Shown piece by piece: positions 1,557 to 48,157 of a stretch of 64,000 bases of DNA. Position numbers and translations under genes: made by a program. How positions within the stretch are numbered: the first letter of the stretch is position 1; the number at the start of each line of letters is the position of its first letter. Under the pieces are notes generated by a model, which searched no databases, was not told the DNA's origin, and was given only the letters and a program-made list of their open reading frames with translations. The DNA is from an uncultured Chloroflexia bacterium (GTDB taxonomy: Bacteria; Chloroflexota; Limnocylindria; Limnocylindrales; CSP1-4), in contig CAVTML010000001.1 of NCBI GenBank assembly GCA_963735865.1, positions 313,023 through 377,022 of the forward strand. The letters are read 5' to 3'.

Positions 1557-2263
1557 ACATCATCGCCGCGACGGCCCGGTGGTTCAGCGATCCGGCGGAT
1601 TGGACCGGGGGAAGCGGCATCCCCACGCGACTTCTGGAGCACGTGGCCGTTTCGGCCGTCACGCTCGGGCTCGCCGTCCTGATCGCCCTTCCGGTCGGGC
1701 TGTGGATCGGGCACACGGAGCGTGGCAACCGGTTCGCCATCGGGCTGGCCAATCTGGGACGAGCTGTCCCGACCCTGGCCGTGATGGGTATCGTGGCCCC
1801 CTTCACGACCGTCATCGACCCGGGACTCGGTTTCATCGTCTACCCGGTCGTGATCGCGATGGTGCTGCTGGGCATCCCGCCGATCCTCGTCAATGCCTAC
1901 GCGGGCATCCGCGAAGTCGATCGGGAGCTCGTCGAAGCCGCCCGAGGGATGGGCTTCCGGGAGGCGCAGATCCTGCTCCGCGTCGAGTTGCCGGTGGCGC
2001 TGCCGGTGGTGCTGGGAGGCATCCGCTCGGCCGCGGTCCAGATCCTCGCCACGGCGACCCTGGGCGCCCTCTTCGGCTTCGGCGGGCTGGGCCGGTTCCT
2101 CGTCGATGGGATCGCGCAGCATGACACGGGCCAGACATGGGGCGGCGTCGTGCTCGTGGCGCTCCTCGTGCTGACCAGCGAGGGTCTCTTCGCGCTGCTC
2201 CAGCGACGGCTGATCTCGCGCGGCCTGCGCCTCCAGGTGGCGGCAGCGGCGGCCGCGCAGTGA
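1553..2263 (+). CDS. Osmoprotectant ABC transporter permease
   Basis: EAARGMGF...VELPVALP EAA motif; GTG start at 1553 overlaps previous stop (GTGA). Confidence 0.9.
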   Translation: MNIIAATARWFSDPADWTGGSGIPTRLLEHVAVSAVTLGLAVLIALPVGLWIGHTERGNRFAIGLANLGRAVPTLAVMGIVAPFTTVIDPGLGFIVYPVVIAMVLLGIPPILVNAYAGIREVDRELVEAARGMGFREAQILLRVELPVALPVVLGGIRSAAVQILATATLGALFGFGGLGRFLVDGIAQHDTGQTWGGVVLVALLVLTSEGLFALLQRRLISRGLRLQVAAAAAAQ

Positions 2264-2295
2264 CGCGGGCGGCCCGGACCGTTGTGGGCGGGGCC

Positions 2296-2445
2296 GGTTG
2301 TTGGATATTCCGGGGGAGACTCTTAAGTGCCCGTGTAGACCTCGCCGTTGTCGGCCCGAGCACGGCCATGTGCAGCCGGTGAATAAGCGACAACCGTTGG
2401 GCGCATCTGGGCGCTTAGCAGTCCGGTGGTGCATAGACAACAACG
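2296..2445. repeat. 150-bp modular palindromic intergenic element, copy 1
   Basis: GGTTGTTGGATA-n10-GACTCTTAAGTGCCC-n13-CGTTGTC-n7-GCACGGCC-n20-CGACAAC-n14-GGGCGCTTAGCAGTC-n10-TAGACAACAACG; same boxes and spacing at 4508-4656 and 18177-18326. Confidence 0.88.
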
Positions 2446-2653
2446 GCAGGGGCCCGACGGCGGTTCGTCGCGGCCGGGCCATGACCCGCTAGATCCGATC
2501 GCGGCCGGCCTGCGTACAGAGCGACGCGGGCCTCATATGCCGTGTCCGCACGCCCTTGCCCGCGTCAGGACGCGTTCGCGGGGGACGGCTATAGTCGGCC
2601 GACCTTTTCAGCCGATCAGCCCGAACGGCAAGGGAGTAGAAGGAGACGACCCA

Positions 2654-3735: not shown

Positions 3736-4455
3736 ATGCAGCGAAGCCCCCTCACCGAGTACCTGGAGCTGGCCGACTGGCGCCGGCAGGTCGCCGCCGC
3801 CTGGGACGCCTGGCGCCGCGAGGGCGCGAGCGACCCCGCGGCCGCCACCGCCGCCTACCGCGCTGCCAAGGACGTGCTCTTTGGAACGCACCCCCAGTCG
3901 CCCCTGCTGCCGGAGCGGCGGGCTGGCTTCGACGGCCTGCCCTACTGGCCCTACGACCCCGTCTGGCGAATGACGGTCCGCCTGGAGCCATTCGAGACCC
4001 CGACGGTCGGGCCCCACGACGAGGCGCCGGGGGCGCCGGGGCAGGCGGCCGCGAGCGCGAGCCCGCTGGGTGGCCTTGCACCCCTGGGCGGTCTCGCCCT
4101 GCCCAACTCGGGGTCGGCCAACCCCACCTTCCGGCGCATCGGCCGGGTGAGCCTGTCGGGGCCGCTGGCGGGGCGGCAGCTGGCCGTCTTCTGGCTGGAG
4201 GGCTACGGCGGCGGCTTGTTCGTGCCCTTCCGCGATGCCACGTCGGGCAGCGAGACCTACGGCGCGGGGCGCTACCTCCTGGACACCATCAAGGGCGCCG
4301 ATCACGGCGGCGACGCGGCCATGGGCGAGCTGGTGCTGGACTTCAACATGGCCTACCAGCCCTCGTGCGCCTACGACCCGCGCTGGAGCTGCCCCCTCGC
4401 GCCGCCGGAGAACCGCCTCGCGGCGCCCGTCCGCGTGGGTGAGCGCCTGGCCTGA
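3736..4455 (+). CDS. DUF1684 family protein
   Basis: FVPFRDATSGSETYGAGRYL and LDFNMAYQPSCAYDPRWSCPLAPPEN motifs; GAGGA RBS. Confidence 0.88.
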   Translation: MQRSPLTEYLELADWRRQVAAAWDAWRREGASDPAAATAAYRAAKDVLFGTHPQSPLLPERRAGFDGLPYWPYDPVWRMTVRLEPFETPTVGPHDEAPGAPGQAAASASPLGGLAPLGGLALPNSGSANPTFRRIGRVSLSGPLAGRQLAVFWLEGYGGGLFVPFRDATSGSETYGAGRYLLDTIKGADHGGDAAMGELVLDFNMAYQPSCAYDPRWSCPLAPPENRLAAPVRVGERLA

Positions 4456-4507
4456 CGCTACACCGCGGTCGTCGCCCGGACTCGTCCCAGCCCATCCCGA
4501 CCCGGTC

Positions 4508-4656
4508 CGTTGTCGTTTACGCAGCGGTGGACTCGTAAACGCCCCGATCCGCGCGGTGGTTGTCGAACAGTCTGCAGCCGTGTACGGCCGTGCCCAGGCG
4601 GACAACGGGGACCTCCACGGGGGCGCTTACGAGTCCCGGTGGGCTATCCAATAACG
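4508..4656. repeat. 150-bp modular palindromic intergenic element, copy 2 (inverted relative to copy 1)
   Basis: CGTTGTCGTTTA-n10-GACTCGTAAACGCCC-n14-GTTGTCG-n20-GGCCGTGC-n7-GACAACG-n13-GGGCGCTTACGAGTC-n9-TATCCAATAACG. Confidence 0.88.
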
Positions 4657-4836
4657 TCTTGCGGGCCCGTCCCGGTGCCGGTCGGCGAGCGCTTGACCTG
4701 ACGTCTGCCGAACGAACGTACCGCCACCGGGCGTACTGCTGACACGACGCGCCGCGGCCCGACCGTGGGCCATGATGGCTGCCCGACGGCGCACGATCCG
4801 GGACCGGGGCCGTGTGGGGCCGTCGAGGGGGACTCC

Positions 4837-5979
4837 GTGCGCTTCATCAACCGGACGAGTCGAAACGAAGAGCGGCTCCTGTGGTCACGCGACGAGCGCT
4901 TCGTCGCGCGCGTCGCCGCGGGCGCCCCCGGCGCGACCCACCTGGTGCTGGCCGCGGGCGCCGTCATCATCGGCTCGGGCGAGGCGATGACCGATGCCGT
5001 CGTGGCCGCCATGGCCGGCCCGACCGACTACGGCCTGATCGCCCTCGACATGCAGCTGCCGCCGGTGGAGCGCTACCTGACCGGCCTAGCCGACGCGGTG
5101 CAGCAATCCGGCATCGCCGACCGGGTCGGGATGCTCACTTCGCCCGTGACCGCCTATCACAAGGTCATGGACGCGTTCCTCGCCCTGGGCCGGCGCGACG
5201 CGATCGGCATCGTGTACCAGCCCCTCGTCTCGCTCGAGACGATGGTCGCCATCGGCTACGAGACGCTGTGTCGCCCTTCGGCGGCGGCGGGCTCGATCGA
5301 CGAGGTCGTGCGCGCGGCGGTGGAGACCGGCCGCACGGCCGAGCTCGACCGGCTCATCTTCGAACGGGTCCTCAGCCGCACCGCCCGCCTGCCCGAGATC
5401 CCGAGCCACATCACGATCAACCTCCTGCCCGCCAGCCTGGCCGATCCGTGGTTCGAGCCGGCGGCCCTGGCCGCGCGCTGCCGCGCCACGGGCATCCACC
5501 CGCGCCACATCACGCTCGAGTGCACCGAGCAGCAGGCGGCCCCCGACCTGACCGCCCTCGTGCGGCGCGTCCGGCAGCTGCGCACCCGTGGGTTCGGGTT
5601 CGCGGTCGACGACGCCGGGGCGGGCTACGCCTCGTTCAGCCTGATCGCCGCCCTCAAGCCGTCGCTCATCAAGATCGACCGCGACATCGTCCGCGGCATC
5701 GCCCGCCAGACCTCCAAGCAGGCCCTCGTGGAGGCGTTCGTGGGCTTCGCGCGCCGCATCGGGGCGGACCTCGCCGGCGAGGGCATCGAACGGGTCGCCG
5801 ACCTGGAGATGCTGCGCAGCCTCGGCGTCACGTACGGGCAGGGCTGGATGCTGGGCCGGCCGGCCAGCGCACCGCAGCCGGCCAGGCACGTGCCCGGCCA
5901 CCCGACCCCGGCCGCCGCGGCCCGCGCCGCCAGCCGGAGCCGCACCACCGCCCGACGCACCTCCGTCGGCGCCGGCTAG
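4837..5979 (+). CDS. EAL-domain c-di-GMP phosphodiesterase with unassigned N-terminal region
   Basis: GYETLCR (EAL variant), INL, LECTE, AVDDAGAGYASF, IKIDR, EGIE, GQGW motifs; GTG start after GAGGGG chosen over 4765. Confidence 0.85.
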   Translation: MRFINRTSRNEERLLWSRDERFVARVAAGAPGATHLVLAAGAVIIGSGEAMTDAVVAAMAGPTDYGLIALDMQLPPVERYLTGLADAVQQSGIADRVGMLTSPVTAYHKVMDAFLALGRRDAIGIVYQPLVSLETMVAIGYETLCRPSAAAGSIDEVVRAAVETGRTAELDRLIFERVLSRTARLPEIPSHITINLLPASLADPWFEPAALAARCRATGIHPRHITLECTEQQAAPDLTALVRRVRQLRTRGFGFAVDDAGAGYASFSLIAALKPSLIKIDRDIVRGIARQTSKQALVEAFVGFARRIGADLAGEGIERVADLEMLRSLGVTYGQGWMLGRPASAPQPARHVPGHPTPAAAARAASRSRTTARRTSVGAG

Positions 5980-17652: not shown

Positions 17653-18120
17653 GTGGCACCGACCGGCCAGCTCAACATGGACCGCGCCAGCGTGCGCGAC
17701 CGGCTGCACGCCCGCGGCCTGCGCTGGACGCTCCAGCGCAGCACCCTGCTCGACGTGCTCGAGCAGACTGACGGGCATGTCACGGGCCACGAGCTCGTCG
17801 AGCGCTGCCGTGCGGTGGACCCGTCGACGACCCCATCGACCGTCTACCGCACGCTCGATGTCCTGGAAGAGCTGGGCGTGGTGCGGCACCACCACGGCGC
17901 CGATGGCCGTGAGGAGTTCCACGTCCGACCCGCGACGGCCCACGGCCACCTGCACTGCGGCGTCTGCGGCCAGAGCTGGGAGCTGGGCCCGGCCGAGCTG
18001 GCGCCCCTGGTGAGCGCCCTCCGGGCCGGGCGCGCGTTCGACGTGGACCTCTCGCATGTCACGGTCGCCGGCACCTGCCGCGACTGCCAGGCACGGCTGG
18101 ACGAGGCACACCTCGACTGA
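17653..18120 (+). CDS. Fur family metalloregulator (possibly Nur/Zur-like)
   Basis: STVYRTLDVLEELG HTH, HGHLHCGVC and CRDC motifs. Confidence 0.9.
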   Translation: MAPTGQLNMDRASVRDRLHARGLRWTLQRSTLLDVLEQTDGHVTGHELVERCRAVDPSTTPSTVYRTLDVLEELGVVRHHHGADGREEFHVRPATAHGHLHCGVCGQSWELGPAELAPLVSALRAGRAFDVDLSHVTVAGTCRDCQARLDEAHLD

Positions 18121-18176: not shown

Positions 18177-18326
18177 CGTTGTCGTCTAGTCGCCAGCAGA
18201 CTCTTAAGCACCCGCGCAGCGGCCGTCCGTTGCTGTGCAAGCGTGGCCGTATGCCCCAGTTGGATACACGACAACGCGGACGGCCCATGCGTCGCATATG
18301 AGTCACTGGCGGACTAAGCAACGACG
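18177..18326. repeat. 150-bp modular palindromic intergenic element, copy 3
   Basis: CGTTGTCGTCTA-n10-GACTCTTAAGCACCC-n14-CGTTGCT-n6-GCGTGGCC-n20-CGACAAC-n14-CGTCGCATATGAGTC-n10-TAAGCAACGACG. Confidence 0.85.
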
Positions 18327-18411
18327 GCCGGTGGCCCGCAGGCTCGGCGCCGGCGAGCCGGCGGGCGGCGCCGAAGTAGCGCCCCTACACCGGCCGATCC
18401 CCCGGGGTTCG

Positions 18412-47960: not shown

Positions 47961-48058
47961 GGCCGCATTGAAACGGGTGCGCCTTCACACGCACTTACCG
48001 TGGCATGTCCCGGTGCTTCGCCAGGAATTGGCGTGAGGTTCACCGTTCCCGCCCGGCG

Positions 48059-48080
48059 CTGATGACTTCGAGAGCATCAG
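48059..48080. repeat. 22-bp REP-like hairpin, right of XRE gene (inverted)
   Basis: CTGATGACTTCGAGAGCATCAG. Confidence 0.75.
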
Positions 48081-48157
48081 CGGGGAGGGTTCGTTTCCTT
48101 TTCGTGCTCACGGACCGCGGCTCGGGGTCCCGTGGGAGCCCGGCGCCTGGCGGACGA

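What the first reader, a model, noticed from the sequence alone, without database searches (positions are those of the whole stretch)
2296..2445. Fixed-length 150-bp intergenic element made of three 50-bp modules, with conserved boxes and variable spacers (3 copies in 16 kb)
Seen directly: three loci (2296-2445; 4508-4656 inverted; 18177-18326) are 150, 149 and 150 bp long and share the layout SGTTRTYGKMTA-n9/10-GACTCnTAAGyrCCC-n13/14-CGTTGyy-n6/7-GCryGGCC-n20-CGACAAC-n14-(reverse of the GACTC box)-n10-TArrCrACrACG. The boxes are symmetric about the centre. In copy 1 the GTTGT boxes (2297, 2347) and the ACAAC boxes (2390, 2440) are each exactly 50 bp apart, so the element divides into left, centre and right 50-bp modules. 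The spacers differ between copies and in copies 1 and 2 do not base-pair, so this is not a simple RNA hairpin or a recently duplicated MITE. Only the central GCACGGCC box gives it a direction. Inference: spacing conserved without spacer sequence suggests an array of protein-binding or cleavage sites on DNA, such as a non-autonomous element spread by an enzyme encoded elsewhere (by analogy to REPIN/RAYT) or a chromosome-organising site. I do not recognise it as a REP, attC, CRISPR or riboswitch family. Copy 1 sits inside the osmoprotectant operon.
Basis: partly seen in the sequence, partly recalled or inferred. Interest (0 to 1): 0.88.

Follow-up and report, generated by a model that had tools for sequence, protein, structure and literature searches.

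The report
Fixed-length 151-bp boxed intergenic repeat family
This is a real, previously undescribed family of about 151-base mirror-symmetric repeats that sit just after genes in one genus of uncultured soil bacteria, and evolution has preserved their short sequence boxes and their exact length but not base pairing, which points to protein docking sites on DNA rather than an RNA hairpin.

Summary
The three window copies align box for box. They belong to a family of 19 copies in this 2.8-Mb genome, all intergenic.

- Distribution: the family is in 4 of 6 other genomes of the genus, with a divergent form in one sister genus.
- Length: 57 of 58 genus copies span 152-157 nt.
- Known families: none match in Rfam. 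No Y1/RAYT transposase is in any of the 7 genus genomes.
- Age and mobility: copies are old (median 65% identity between paralogs) and mostly sit at orthologous sites across species. Clean empty sites also exist, so copies are gained or lost as units.
- Selection: between orthologous copies the boxes diverge 7.7% and the spacers 28.3% (22 of 22 pairs). Indels are about three times rarer than in the flanks.
- Pairing: arm-to-arm pairing is no better than chance (65.8% against 65.7% shuffled). Substitutions do not preserve pairs.

Best reading: a MITE/ERIC-like dyad repeat whose boxes are kept at each locus as a fixed-geometry array of sequence-specific sites, most likely on duplex DNA. One pair of copies flanks an XRE-HTH + PD-(D/E)XK nuclease gene. 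That gene is a weak candidate partner.

The parts
2296..2446 (+). Copy 1, the 151-nt core, between the second ABC permease gene (1496-2263) and the OpuAC substrate-binding gene
   Evidence: (R1 132.9 bits)
2296..2309 (+). Copy 1 outer-left box (GGTTGTTGGATA type; family consensus CGTTGTCGTCTAGTC)
2318..2332 (+). Copy 1 middle-left box GACTCTTAAGTGCCC (family consensus GACTsGTAtGCGCC), the best-conserved box and the one kept in the sister-genus variant
2346..2353 (+). Copy 1 inner-left box CGTTGTCG
2381..2394 (+). Copy 1 central asymmetric unit plus inner-right box (GAATAAGCGACAAC; family GACTnnGCGACAAC). This gives the element its direction.
2409..2423 (+). Copy 1 middle-right box GGGCGCTTAGCAGTC, the mirror of the middle-left box
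2434..2445 (+). Copy 1 outer-right box TAGACAACAACG
2249..2264 (+). Left member of an imperfect 16-nt direct repeat (13 of 16 identical, my count) around the roughly 220-nt stretch that is missing at the empty sites of G001 and G003. It includes the stop codon of the upstream gene.
2470..2485 (+). Right member of that direct repeat
4507..4656 (-). Copy 2, the 150-nt core, between the DUF1684 gene (3736-4455) and the EAL-domain gene (4765-5979)
4417..4457 (+). Left member of a 41/46-nt imperfect direct repeat flanking copy 2. It is the true 3' end of the DUF1684 gene.
   Evidence: (0.3% of non-cognate flank pairs score as high)
4658..4703 (+). Right member of that repeat, a decaying duplicate of the gene's 3' end. 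The empty sites in G001 and G003 carry a single copy.
18177..18327 (+). Copy 3, the 151-nt core, 56 nt after the stop of a Fur-family gene (17653-18120) and before a PMT_2 glycosyltransferase gene

Best explanation
The finding is one member of a genus-restricted family of about 151-bp non-coding, dyad-symmetric interspersed repeats. The host is an uncultured soil lineage, probably Chloroflexota.

Anatomy. Each copy has three boxes on the left arm (CGTTGTCGTCTAGTC, GACTsGTAtGCGCC, CGTTGTCG) and their mirror images on the right arm. One extra GACT-N4/5-GACAAC unit in the centre gives a direction. The spacers between the boxes are free in sequence but fixed in length.

Shown:
- The copies are old and mostly inherited vertically.
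- They lie a few tens of bases after stop codons.
- They are gained or lost as units.
- At each locus the boxes and the overall length are kept by purifying selection, while base pairing between the arms is not.

Inferred. The element therefore works through sequence-specific recognition of an array of sites held at fixed distances, most likely by a multimeric DNA-binding protein on duplex DNA. It does not work as an RNA or single-strand hairpin. It probably began as a MITE-like mobile repeat and was then retained.

Speculative. The protein could be the XRE-HTH + PD-(D/E)XK nuclease encoded between two copies at one locus, or one of its paralogues.
For: - Family and length: 19 copies in the genome. 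Across five genus genomes 57 of 58 copies span 152-157 nt.
- Selection at each locus: 22 orthologous pairs share their flanks. Box columns diverge 69/901 = 7.7% and spacer columns 463/1635 = 28.3%, boxes lower in 22 of 22 pairs. With boxes defined on 13 independent non-orthologous copies the figures are 13.2% and 29.3%, in 20 of 21 pairs.
- Ascertainment does not explain this. Simulated uniform 28% divergence leaves 143 of 380 copies detectable, and those still show 22.7% box divergence.
- Length: 2.0 gap events per 100 nt in cores against 6.7 in the adjoining 45-nt flanks. The flanks are only 64% identical, so the spacers evolve about as fast as the flanks.
- No pairing constraint:
  - 65.8% of cells are paired against 65.7% in shuffles (226 of 500 shuffles as high).
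  - A copy's own arms fold no better than arms from different copies (mean z +0.33).
  - Ortholog substitutions keep a pair in 21.9% of cases against 16.8-24.0% in shifted registers.
  - In box stems WC<->GU changes number 44 and WC<->AC 48, and only 3 of 23 double changes are compensatory.
- Orientation relative to transcription is mixed: 5 same and 7 opposite among 12 orientable co-directional copies. I mapped this by hand.
- The middle box occurs almost only inside elements (19 of 21 hits).
- Gain and loss as units:
  - Copies 1, 2 and 3 are absent at the orthologous sites of G001 and G003.
  - Copy C1:512222 is absent in G001, G003, G005 and G006.
  - Relatives carry copies where G000 has none.
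- Candidate partner:
  - An element-gene-element unit is absent as a whole in G001 and G003. It is present at the same locus in G005 and on one metagenome contig.
  - The gene has an HTH and a confidently modelled PD-(D/E)XK domain.
Against: - No protein has been shown to bind.
- The flanked nuclease gene sits at a single locus. It was not found in G006 (94% complete, 13 copies) or in G004. Its paralogues occur in genomes with few or no elements (G001, G003).
- None of the 8 more distant homologue loci examined is flanked by such repeats.
- Close relatives G002 and G003 show no copies and G001 only two, so any host function is dispensable.
- The position right after stop codons and inside an operon also fits an RNA-level role. 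The sense strand folds better in 10 of 13 co-directional copies (weak).
- One variable box position does covary between the arms (TAAG/CTTA against TATG/CATA: 15 of 19 paired against 9.1 expected). This follows subfamily lines.
- The purifying-selection test counts related pairs that are not fully independent.
Confidence: 0.5

Rival explanations
1. RNA-level element. The repeat is transcribed with the upstream gene, and its long imperfect hairpin acts as a 3'-end stabiliser, terminator or processing site, as REP/BIME and ERIC-type repeats are thought to do.
For: - 13 of 17 solo copies have a called stop codon 32-80 nt from the core. None of the 17 lies between divergent genes, against 18% of intergenic gaps genome-wide (P about 0.03 with my crude gene calls).
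- Copy 1 lies inside an opuA-like operon.
- Most copies fold into a long hairpin of -50 to -83 kcal/mol.
- The sense strand is the more stable one in 10 of 13 co-directional copies.
Against: - Pairing equals the shuffled expectation.
- Chimeric arms fold as well as native arms.
- Ortholog substitutions do not preserve pairs.
- G-U states are no commoner than A-C states (93 against 97). Changes to GU are no commoner than changes to AC (44 against 48). On the sense strand the counts are GU 56 and AC 43, not significant.
- The element's orientation relative to transcription is mixed (5 same, 7 opposite).
- No Rfam family matches.
- Unpaired spacers of fixed length are not expected of a stabilising hairpin.
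Confidence: 0.2
2. A REPIN/RAYT-like partnership with a different enzyme. The XRE-HTH + PD-(D/E)XK nuclease encoded between two copies recognises the arm boxes and moves or maintains the repeats, and the solo copies are its non-autonomous population.
For: - The gene is flanked by two direct copies 50-60 nt from its ends.
- The whole 1.2-kb unit is missing at the orthologous site of G001 and G003.
- The two flanking copies share species-specific variants within G000 and within G005, which indicates concerted evolution. They are 93% identical in G000, against a 65% median for the family.
- The C-terminal domain models as a PD-(D/E)XK nuclease. Its Foldseek neighbours are NucS/EndoMS, the endonuclease of R2 retrotransposons and XisH excision factors.
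- Some paralogues carry a palindrome (GCATAGC-ACCAC-N5-GTGGT) 1-158 nt after their stop. Its layout recalls the element arm (GCGCATA-CCAGTC-N7-GACTAG). There are 8 hits in 7.6 kb downstream against 20 in 65 kb of background, with a motif I chose after seeing the data.
Against: - There is one locus only, inherited by synteny in G000, G005 and contig L109.
- G006 has 13 conserved copies and no orthologue was found. G015 has the variant element with no nearby homologue.
- None of 8 distant homologue loci has flanking repeats.
- The G000 gene itself has a garbled HTH, read as two compensating frameshifts or as assembly errors.
- Genes flanked by two copies also arise by clustering, as in G004:C103.
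- The three resolved insertions have imperfect flanking duplications of variable length (14 to 46 nt) and filler DNA, not a fixed enzyme signature.
Confidence: 0.15
3. A purely selfish, decaying MITE family with no function at its loci. On this view the apparent box conservation is an artefact of finding only well-preserved copies.
For: - Presence/absence polymorphism.
- Partial and rearranged copies exist: G005:C152 lacks the centre, L078 holds a half copy, and L075 and L073 have duplicated arms.
- Close relatives have few or no copies.
- There are no recent copies; paralogue identity is at most 74% apart from the flanking pair.
Against: - The simulation shows that ascertainment would still leave 22.7% box divergence, against 7.7% observed.
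- The result holds with independently defined boxes.
- At the two G000 loci without a detected orthologous copy that I examined, relatives have true absences or unrelated sequence, not decayed copies.
- Length is conserved while the flanks accumulate indels.
Confidence: 0.1
4. Site-specific recombination sites (attC-like or dif-module-like). They would allow genes lying between two copies to be excised and captured.
For: - Paired boxes in mirror arrangement start with GTT and end with AAC.
- One gene is bracketed by two direct copies and is present or absent as a unit.
- Those two copies show concerted evolution.
Against: - GTTGTCG does not fit the attC core GTTRRRY (consensus recalled, compared by eye).
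- Length is fixed, whereas attC sites vary.
- There are no cassette arrays.
- Where the unit is absent no solo copy remains, which recombination between two direct copies would leave.
- I did not search for recombinase genes.
Confidence: 0.05

Closest known systems
ERIC/IRU and related enterobacterial repeat units (127-bp imperfect palindromes); Correia/NEMIS elements of Neisseria (recalled; search listings and abstracts only of PMC2759123, PMC2229807, PMC3184786 and PMC10969869)
   Same: About 100-170-bp imperfect palindromes with tens of copies. They are intergenic and lie in transcribed regions next to gene ends. They are present or absent at orthologous sites. Some are described as carrying protein-binding motifs.
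   Different: I have no sequence relation to them, and the phylum is different. Here the conserved part is a set of short boxes at fixed distances, the spacers are free, and arm pairing shows no detectable selection. Flanking duplications are long, imperfect and variable, not a fixed short target duplication.
REP/BIME and REPIN-RAYT systems (abstracts only of PMC3116915, PMC8049555, PMC2817692 and bioRxiv 10.1101/2021.07.10.451892)
   Same: Vertically inherited, long-lived populations of palindromic intergenic repeats. A single-copy gene flanked by the repeats is the suspected partner. The repeats sit after genes and inside operons.
   Different: No Y1/HUH transposase is found in 7 of 7 genus genomes. 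The unit is 151 nt with six to seven boxes, not a pair of 20-40-nt hairpins. There are 19 copies, not hundreds. The flanked gene is an HTH + PD-(D/E)XK nuclease.
Classical MITEs derived from insertion sequences
   Same: Small and non-coding, with inverted terminal boxes. They are polymorphic between related genomes.
   Different: No parent element with the same ends was seen. The borders are not sharp and the target duplication has no fixed length. There are no recent copies. The boxes are under selection at each locus.
Integron attC sites
   Same: Imperfect palindromes made of paired boxes with variable sequence between them.
   Different: Length is fixed rather than variable. The box sequence does not fit the attC core (recalled). 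There are no cassette arrays. attC function depends on a folded single strand, for which I find no constraint here.

Membership tests
REP/REPIN-RAYT | A Y1 (HUH) RAYT transposase gene in the genome, flanked by the repeats | tested here: not met
   PF01797 was found in 0 of 7 genomes of the genus, while the same search hit 6 of 14 control genomes. G000 is only 72.6% complete, but four of the seven genomes are at least 92% complete.
REP/REPIN-RAYT | Short (about 20-40-nt) GC-rich hairpins, often as inverted pairs, usually over 100 copies | tested here: not met
   The unit is 150-152 nt with 19 copies.
MITE (IS-derived) | Terminal inverted repeats and small non-coding size | tested here: met
   The outer boxes CGTTGTCGTCTAG and CTAGACGACAACG are mirror images. 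The element is 151 nt.
MITE (IS-derived) | A target-site duplication of fixed short length directly next to the ends | tested here: not met
   The three resolved insertions have imperfect direct repeats of about 16, 41/46 and 14-18 nt. These are separated from the core by roughly 1-50 nt of unrelated DNA. Only 1 of 19 copies has a significant long flanking repeat.
MITE (IS-derived) | A parent autonomous element with the same ends and a transposase | tested here: inconclusive
   The only gene bracketed by copies is the HTH-nuclease gene, and it lies between two whole elements rather than between half-elements. I made no systematic transposase survey.
MITE (IS-derived) | Presence/absence polymorphism at orthologous sites | tested here: met
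Structured RNA (any Rfam family) | A match to a curated covariance model | tested here: not met
   No hit in the window at gathering score. No hit on 14 other copies at E of 0.1 or less, apart from one neighbouring tRNA.
Structured RNA (new family) | Base pairs maintained by covariation | tested here: not met
Integron attC | R''/L''-L'/R' boxes with GTTRRRY core, variable length, arrays of cassettes next to an integrase | tested here: not met
   The box is GTTGTCG, the length is fixed and the copies are dispersed and solitary. The attC consensus is recalled. I did not search for an integrase.
CRISPR | A tandem array of direct repeats with spacers | tested here: not met
   Copies are dispersed, 1 kb to hundreds of kb apart.
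PD-(D/E)XK nuclease superfamily (the flanked gene) | The alpha-beta-beta-beta-alpha-beta core with D...(D/E)xK motif | tested here: met
   D115, E130 and K132 are invariant in 34 homologues. The model has pLDDT 90 with the expected strand order. Foldseek neighbours are NucS/EndoMS, the R2 endonuclease domain and XisH. Pfam and NCBIfam give only sub-threshold hits.

The most novel reading that the evidence does not exclude
The repeats are the cis-sites of an undescribed, vertically inherited repeat-and-enzyme partnership in Chloroflexota-like soil bacteria. A restriction-endonuclease-fold (PD-(D/E)XK) protein with an XRE HTH takes the place of the HUH transposase of REPIN-RAYT systems. It recognises a fixed-geometry array of boxes on duplex DNA. 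The long, variable flanking duplications would be the mark of a break-and-fill insertion route unlike that of known transposases.
Probability: 0.12. Interest if true: 0.85.

Novelty: new variant of a known kind. Interest (0 to 1): 0.55.

Why it matters
Interspersed palindromic repeats are usually read either as selfish MITEs or as RNA hairpins. Comparative data here separate three things that are normally confounded. Sequence boxes are conserved at each locus. Length is conserved. Pairing is not.

That pattern is the signature expected of a multi-site protein platform on DNA. It makes a concrete question testable: which protein reads a 151-bp array, and why is the array placed just after genes? 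It also supplies a candidate (an HTH + PD-(D/E)XK nuclease family with no curated domain model) and natural controls, namely sister species with empty sites. If the nuclease link holds, it would be a second, mechanistically different case of the long-lived repeat-plus-single-copy-enzyme partnerships known from REPIN-RAYT.

Tried and rejected
- **Hairpin RNA or single-strand DNA.** I tested this five ways and rejected it as the conserved feature.
- **Guide-like spacers** (as in bridge RNAs or box C/D RNAs). Spacer sequences match their own flanks no better than other copies' flanks, in 45 of 57 copies tested. Twelve were dropped because the trimmed alignment rows could not be found again in their sources.
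- **Long target duplications as a general rule.** Only 1 of 19 copies has a significant flanking direct repeat.
- **Decayed copies at 'empty' loci.** None was seen at the two G000 loci I examined. The best sub-threshold hit was E 0.18 in L127, and the alignment shows unrelated sequence.
- **Repeats around paralogues of the nuclease gene.** None in G000. None of 8 distant homologue loci has them.
- **Wider distribution.** An exact two-box pattern over 185,579 species' genomes hit only two same-genus MAGs. It also hit one 49%-GC contig that matches the middle box alone, which is probably chance.
- **Replichore polarity.** GC skew is too weak to place an origin.
- **Expression.** No RNA holder was listed.
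- **Defence-system membership of the nuclease.** PADLOC hits cover the HTH only.
- **A first k-mer scan for operators** was invalid, because many loci were not in gene orientation. I redid it with tblastn orientation.
- **Closed or limited tools.** I did not use the look-up of encoding contigs because it is closed, so the short contigs of the 67-77% identical orthologues P0002-P0004 could not be inspected. I consulted no supplements of papers. For papers I saw only search listings and abstract openings.
Full report
**Observation**

My cores lie at window 2296-2446 (+), 4507-4656 (-) and 18177-18327 (+). In copy 1 the GTTGT boxes at 2297 and 2347 and the ACAAC boxes at 2390 and 2440 are each 50 nt apart.

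The window lies in a 2.8-Mb assembly of two contigs with 72% G+C. Iterated nhmmer from the three copies converges on 19 non-overlapping copies, with E from 1e-25 to 1e-38. Their cores are 150-152 nt long, and none overlaps a called gene.

The consensus is: CGTTGTCGTCTAGTC, about 7 nt, GACTsGTAtGCGCC, about 14 nt, CGTTGTCG, a centre of about 36 nt, CGACAAC, about 14 nt, GGCGCaTAccAGTC, about 7 nt, CTAGaCGACAACG. The arms mirror each other. The centre carries one extra GACT-N4/5-GACAAC unit on one side only, seen in 39 of 57 aligned copies. That unit, not the subfamily-specific GCACGGCC, gives the element a direction.

**Known families**

- Rfam has no match in the window at gathering score. It has none on 14 other copies at E of 0.1 or less, apart from one neighbouring tRNA.
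- No Y1/HUH (RAYT, IS200) transposase is found in any of the 7 genomes of the genus, while the controls ring.

**Distribution**

A covariance model of the 19 copies (R1) was run over 41 related genomes.

- In the same genus it finds 2 copies in G001, 13 in G004, 11 in G005 and 13 in G006.
- It finds none in G002 (75% complete) or G003 (92% complete).
- One sister genus (G015, about 5 copies) has a divergent form that keeps mainly the middle box.
- None was found in the other 17 genera of the family sampled, nor in 16 genomes of the sister family (stricter filters applied).

Of the 58 genus copies, 57 span 152-157 nt and one has lost its centre (108 nt).

An exact two-box pattern scanned over one genome for each of 185,579 species hit only two MAGs of this genus. 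It also hit one 49%-GC contig that matches the middle box alone, which I take for chance. The titles of the two same-genus MAGs disagree on phylum. The nuclease family described below is mostly Chloroflexota.

**Not a hairpin under selection**

Most copies can fold into a long imperfect hairpin, but that follows from the mirror-image boxes alone.

- On the full arm-to-arm structure, 65.8% of cells pair against 65.7% after shuffling partners among copies. In 226 of 500 shuffles the value is as high.
- Per column, spacer pairing equals the expectation.
- Chimeras made of the left half of one copy and the right half of another fold as well as native copies (mean z +0.33). Only 2 of 19 native copies rank among the best few of their 36 chimeras.
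- The one covarying position (TAAG/CTTA against TATG/CATA) follows subfamily lines.

**Selection at each locus**

Flank searches show that most copies sit at orthologous sites in different species. I compared 22 orthologous pairs between G000 and G001, G004, G005 or G006.

- Box columns differ at 69 of 901 positions (7.7%) and spacer columns at 463 of 1635 (28.3%). Boxes are lower in 22 of 22 pairs.
- Defining the boxes on 13 independent, non-orthologous copies from other genomes gives 13.2% against 29.3%, in 20 of 21 pairs.
- Ascertainment cannot explain this. With simulated uniform 28% divergence, 143 of 380 copies remain detectable, and those still show 22.7% box divergence.
- At the two G000 loci without a detected orthologous copy that I examined, relatives have a clean absence or unrelated sequence, not a decayed copy.
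- Indels are 2.0 per 100 nt in cores against 6.7 in the adjoining 45-nt flanks. The flanks are 64% identical, so the spacers change about as fast as the surrounding DNA while the length is held.
- The substitutions do not protect pairing. They keep a pair in 21.9% of changed cells against 16.8-24.0% in shifted registers.
- In the box stems, WC<->GU changes number 44 and WC<->AC changes 48. G-U states number 93 and A-C states 97. Only 3 of 23 double changes are compensatory. On the sense strand the counts are GU 56 and AC 43.

So evolution keeps the sequence of the boxes and the distances between them.

**Genomic context**

Of the 17 solo copies, 13 lie between co-directional genes, 4 between convergent genes and none between divergent genes. 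Divergent gaps make up 18% of gaps in my crude gene calls, which gives P of about 0.03. In 13 of 17 a called stop codon lies 32-80 nt from the core.

Copy 1 sits inside an opuA-like operon, in the order ATPase-CBS, two permeases, the element, then OpuAC. Copy 2 lies between a DUF1684 gene and an EAL-domain gene. Copy 3 follows a Fur-family gene.

The element's own direction is mixed relative to transcription: 5 same and 7 opposite among the 12 co-directional copies that can be oriented. I mapped this by hand. The sense strand is the more stable fold in 10 of 13, which is a weak hint. The middle box occurs almost only inside elements (19 of 21 hits), so there is no separate set of solitary sites.

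**Gain and loss**

- Copies 1, 2 and 3 are present in G006. Copy 1 is also present in G005. All three are absent at the same sites of G001 and G003.
- Copy C1:512222 is absent in G001, G003, G005 and G006, which keep an 18-nt gap between two convergent stop codons.
- Relatives have copies where G000 has none.

In the three best-resolved cases the inserted stretch is longer than the core, about 220-235 nt. It is bounded by imperfect direct repeats of the target:

- about 16 nt for copy 1 (13 of 16 identical);
- 41/46 nt for copy 2, duplicating the 3' end of the upstream gene (0.3% of non-cognate flank pairs score as high);
- about 14-18 nt for C1:512222.

Between these repeats and the core lies roughly 1-50 nt of unrelated DNA. 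Other copies show no significant flanking repeat. Many sit in fast-changing intergenic DNA with partial arm duplications. This is not the signature of a cut-and-paste transposase, and I cannot name the mechanism.

Paralogues are old. The median identity is 65%, and the maximum is 74% apart from one pair.

**The flanked gene**

That one pair (C1:522968-523118 and C1:524000-524150, outside the window) is 93% identical. It brackets a gene on the minus strand.

- Its intact form is 244 aa in G005 and in P0001. It has an XRE-type HTH and a C-terminal domain with invariant D115, E130 and K132.
- The AlphaFold model has mean pLDDT 90.
- Foldseek places the C-terminal domain with PD-(D/E)XK nucleases: NucS/EndoMS, the endonuclease domain of R2 retrotransposons and XisH excision factors.
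- Pfam, NCBIfam and PADLOC have no model for the C-terminal domain.
- In G000 the HTH is garbled over about 35 residues but returns to frame. This is either decay or assembly error.

The 1.2-kb element-gene-element unit is absent as a whole from the orthologous site of G001 and G003. It is present at the same site in G005 and on a metagenome contig. Within G000 and within G005 the two flanking copies share species-specific variants, so they exchange sequence.

Against a causal link:

- This is a single locus.
- G006 keeps 13 conserved copies and no orthologue was found there.
- Paralogues at 42-49% identity occur in genomes with few or no elements and are not flanked by repeats.
- None of 8 loci of the closest homologues outside the genus (46-52% identity) has flanking repeats.

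One lead remains. Several paralogues have a palindrome (GCATAGC-ACCAC-N5-GTGGT) 1-158 nt after their stop codon. Its layout recalls the element arm. There are 8 hits in 7.6 kb against 20 in 65 kb of background, but I chose the motif after seeing the data.

**Conclusion**

The element is a new, genus-restricted family of dyad-symmetric interspersed repeats. It belongs to the general kind that includes ERIC, Correia and REP/BIME elements, and it probably has a MITE-like origin.

Its distinguishing property is shown here by comparison of orthologous copies. An array of short boxes and its exact length are under purifying selection at each locus, and the potential hairpin is not. I therefore favour a fixed-geometry set of protein recognition sites on duplex DNA (confidence about 0.5).

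An RNA-level role after genes comes second. A partnership with the HTH-PD-(D/E)XK nuclease is an attractive but weakly supported third. Expression could not be assessed, because no RNA run was listed.

Noticed in passing
window about 48,058-48,100 (G000 C1:361,080-361,130): A second, shorter repeat of about 35-50 nt lies downstream of a small HTH-like match. It has at least 7 other copies in the genome at 84-92% identity.
   Followed up: no
L005:531-710 (G000 C1:657,709-657,888), next to element copy C1:657479: A stretch of about 175 nt matches many places in G006 (at least 12) and G003 (5) at 70-79% identity. It is either another repeat family or a conserved gene fragment.
   Followed up: no
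L001:2678-3451 (-) = G000 C1:523,177-523,950: The G000 copy of the HTH-nuclease gene stays open, but residues about 10-45 read as if shifted out of frame and back, relative to the 244-aa forms in G005 and P0001. This destroys the first HTH helices. It could be decay or long-read assembly error.
   Followed up: partly
G000 contig C2, all element copies: All 8 copies on contig C2 that can be oriented by the central GACT unit point the same way, while contig C1 has 5 one way and 4 the other. I mapped this by hand. GC skew is too weak to relate it to replication.
   Followed up: partly
L012:145-217 (-) = G000 C2:1,031,854-1,031,926: A tRNA gene lies 84 nt from element copy C2:1032010.
   Followed up: no
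L001:4935-5534 (G000 C1:525,434-526,033): A GNAT acetyltransferase gene next to the MFS gene is present in G000. It is replaced by a few bases in G001 and shortened in G003. This is a second indel polymorphism at the same locus.
   Followed up: no
L141:1036-1335, L146:749-903, L145:2175-2342: Tandem repeats of 20 nt (11 copies), 24 nt (5 copies) and 84 nt (2 copies) lie next to distant homologues of the HTH-nuclease gene in other genera.
   Followed up: no
L049, L054, L141, L149 (paralogue loci in G006, G001, G097, G245): A conserved palindrome GC(A/G)TA(A/G)C-ACCA(C/G)-N5-(C/G)TGGT lies 1-158 nt after the stop of several HTH-nuclease paralogues. A related one lies about 145 nt upstream in L049 and L056.
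   Followed up: partly
L130-L139 record titles: Two MAGs that the genome collection places in the same genus as the window carry NCBI titles from different phyla ('uncultured Chloroflexia bacterium' and 'Candidatus Sulfotelmatobacter sp.').
   Followed up: no
G000 C2:300,631-300,644: A solitary near-match to the middle box (GACTGGTAGGCGCC) lies about 1 kb from element copy C2:299486. It may be a fragment of a lost copy.
   Followed up: no
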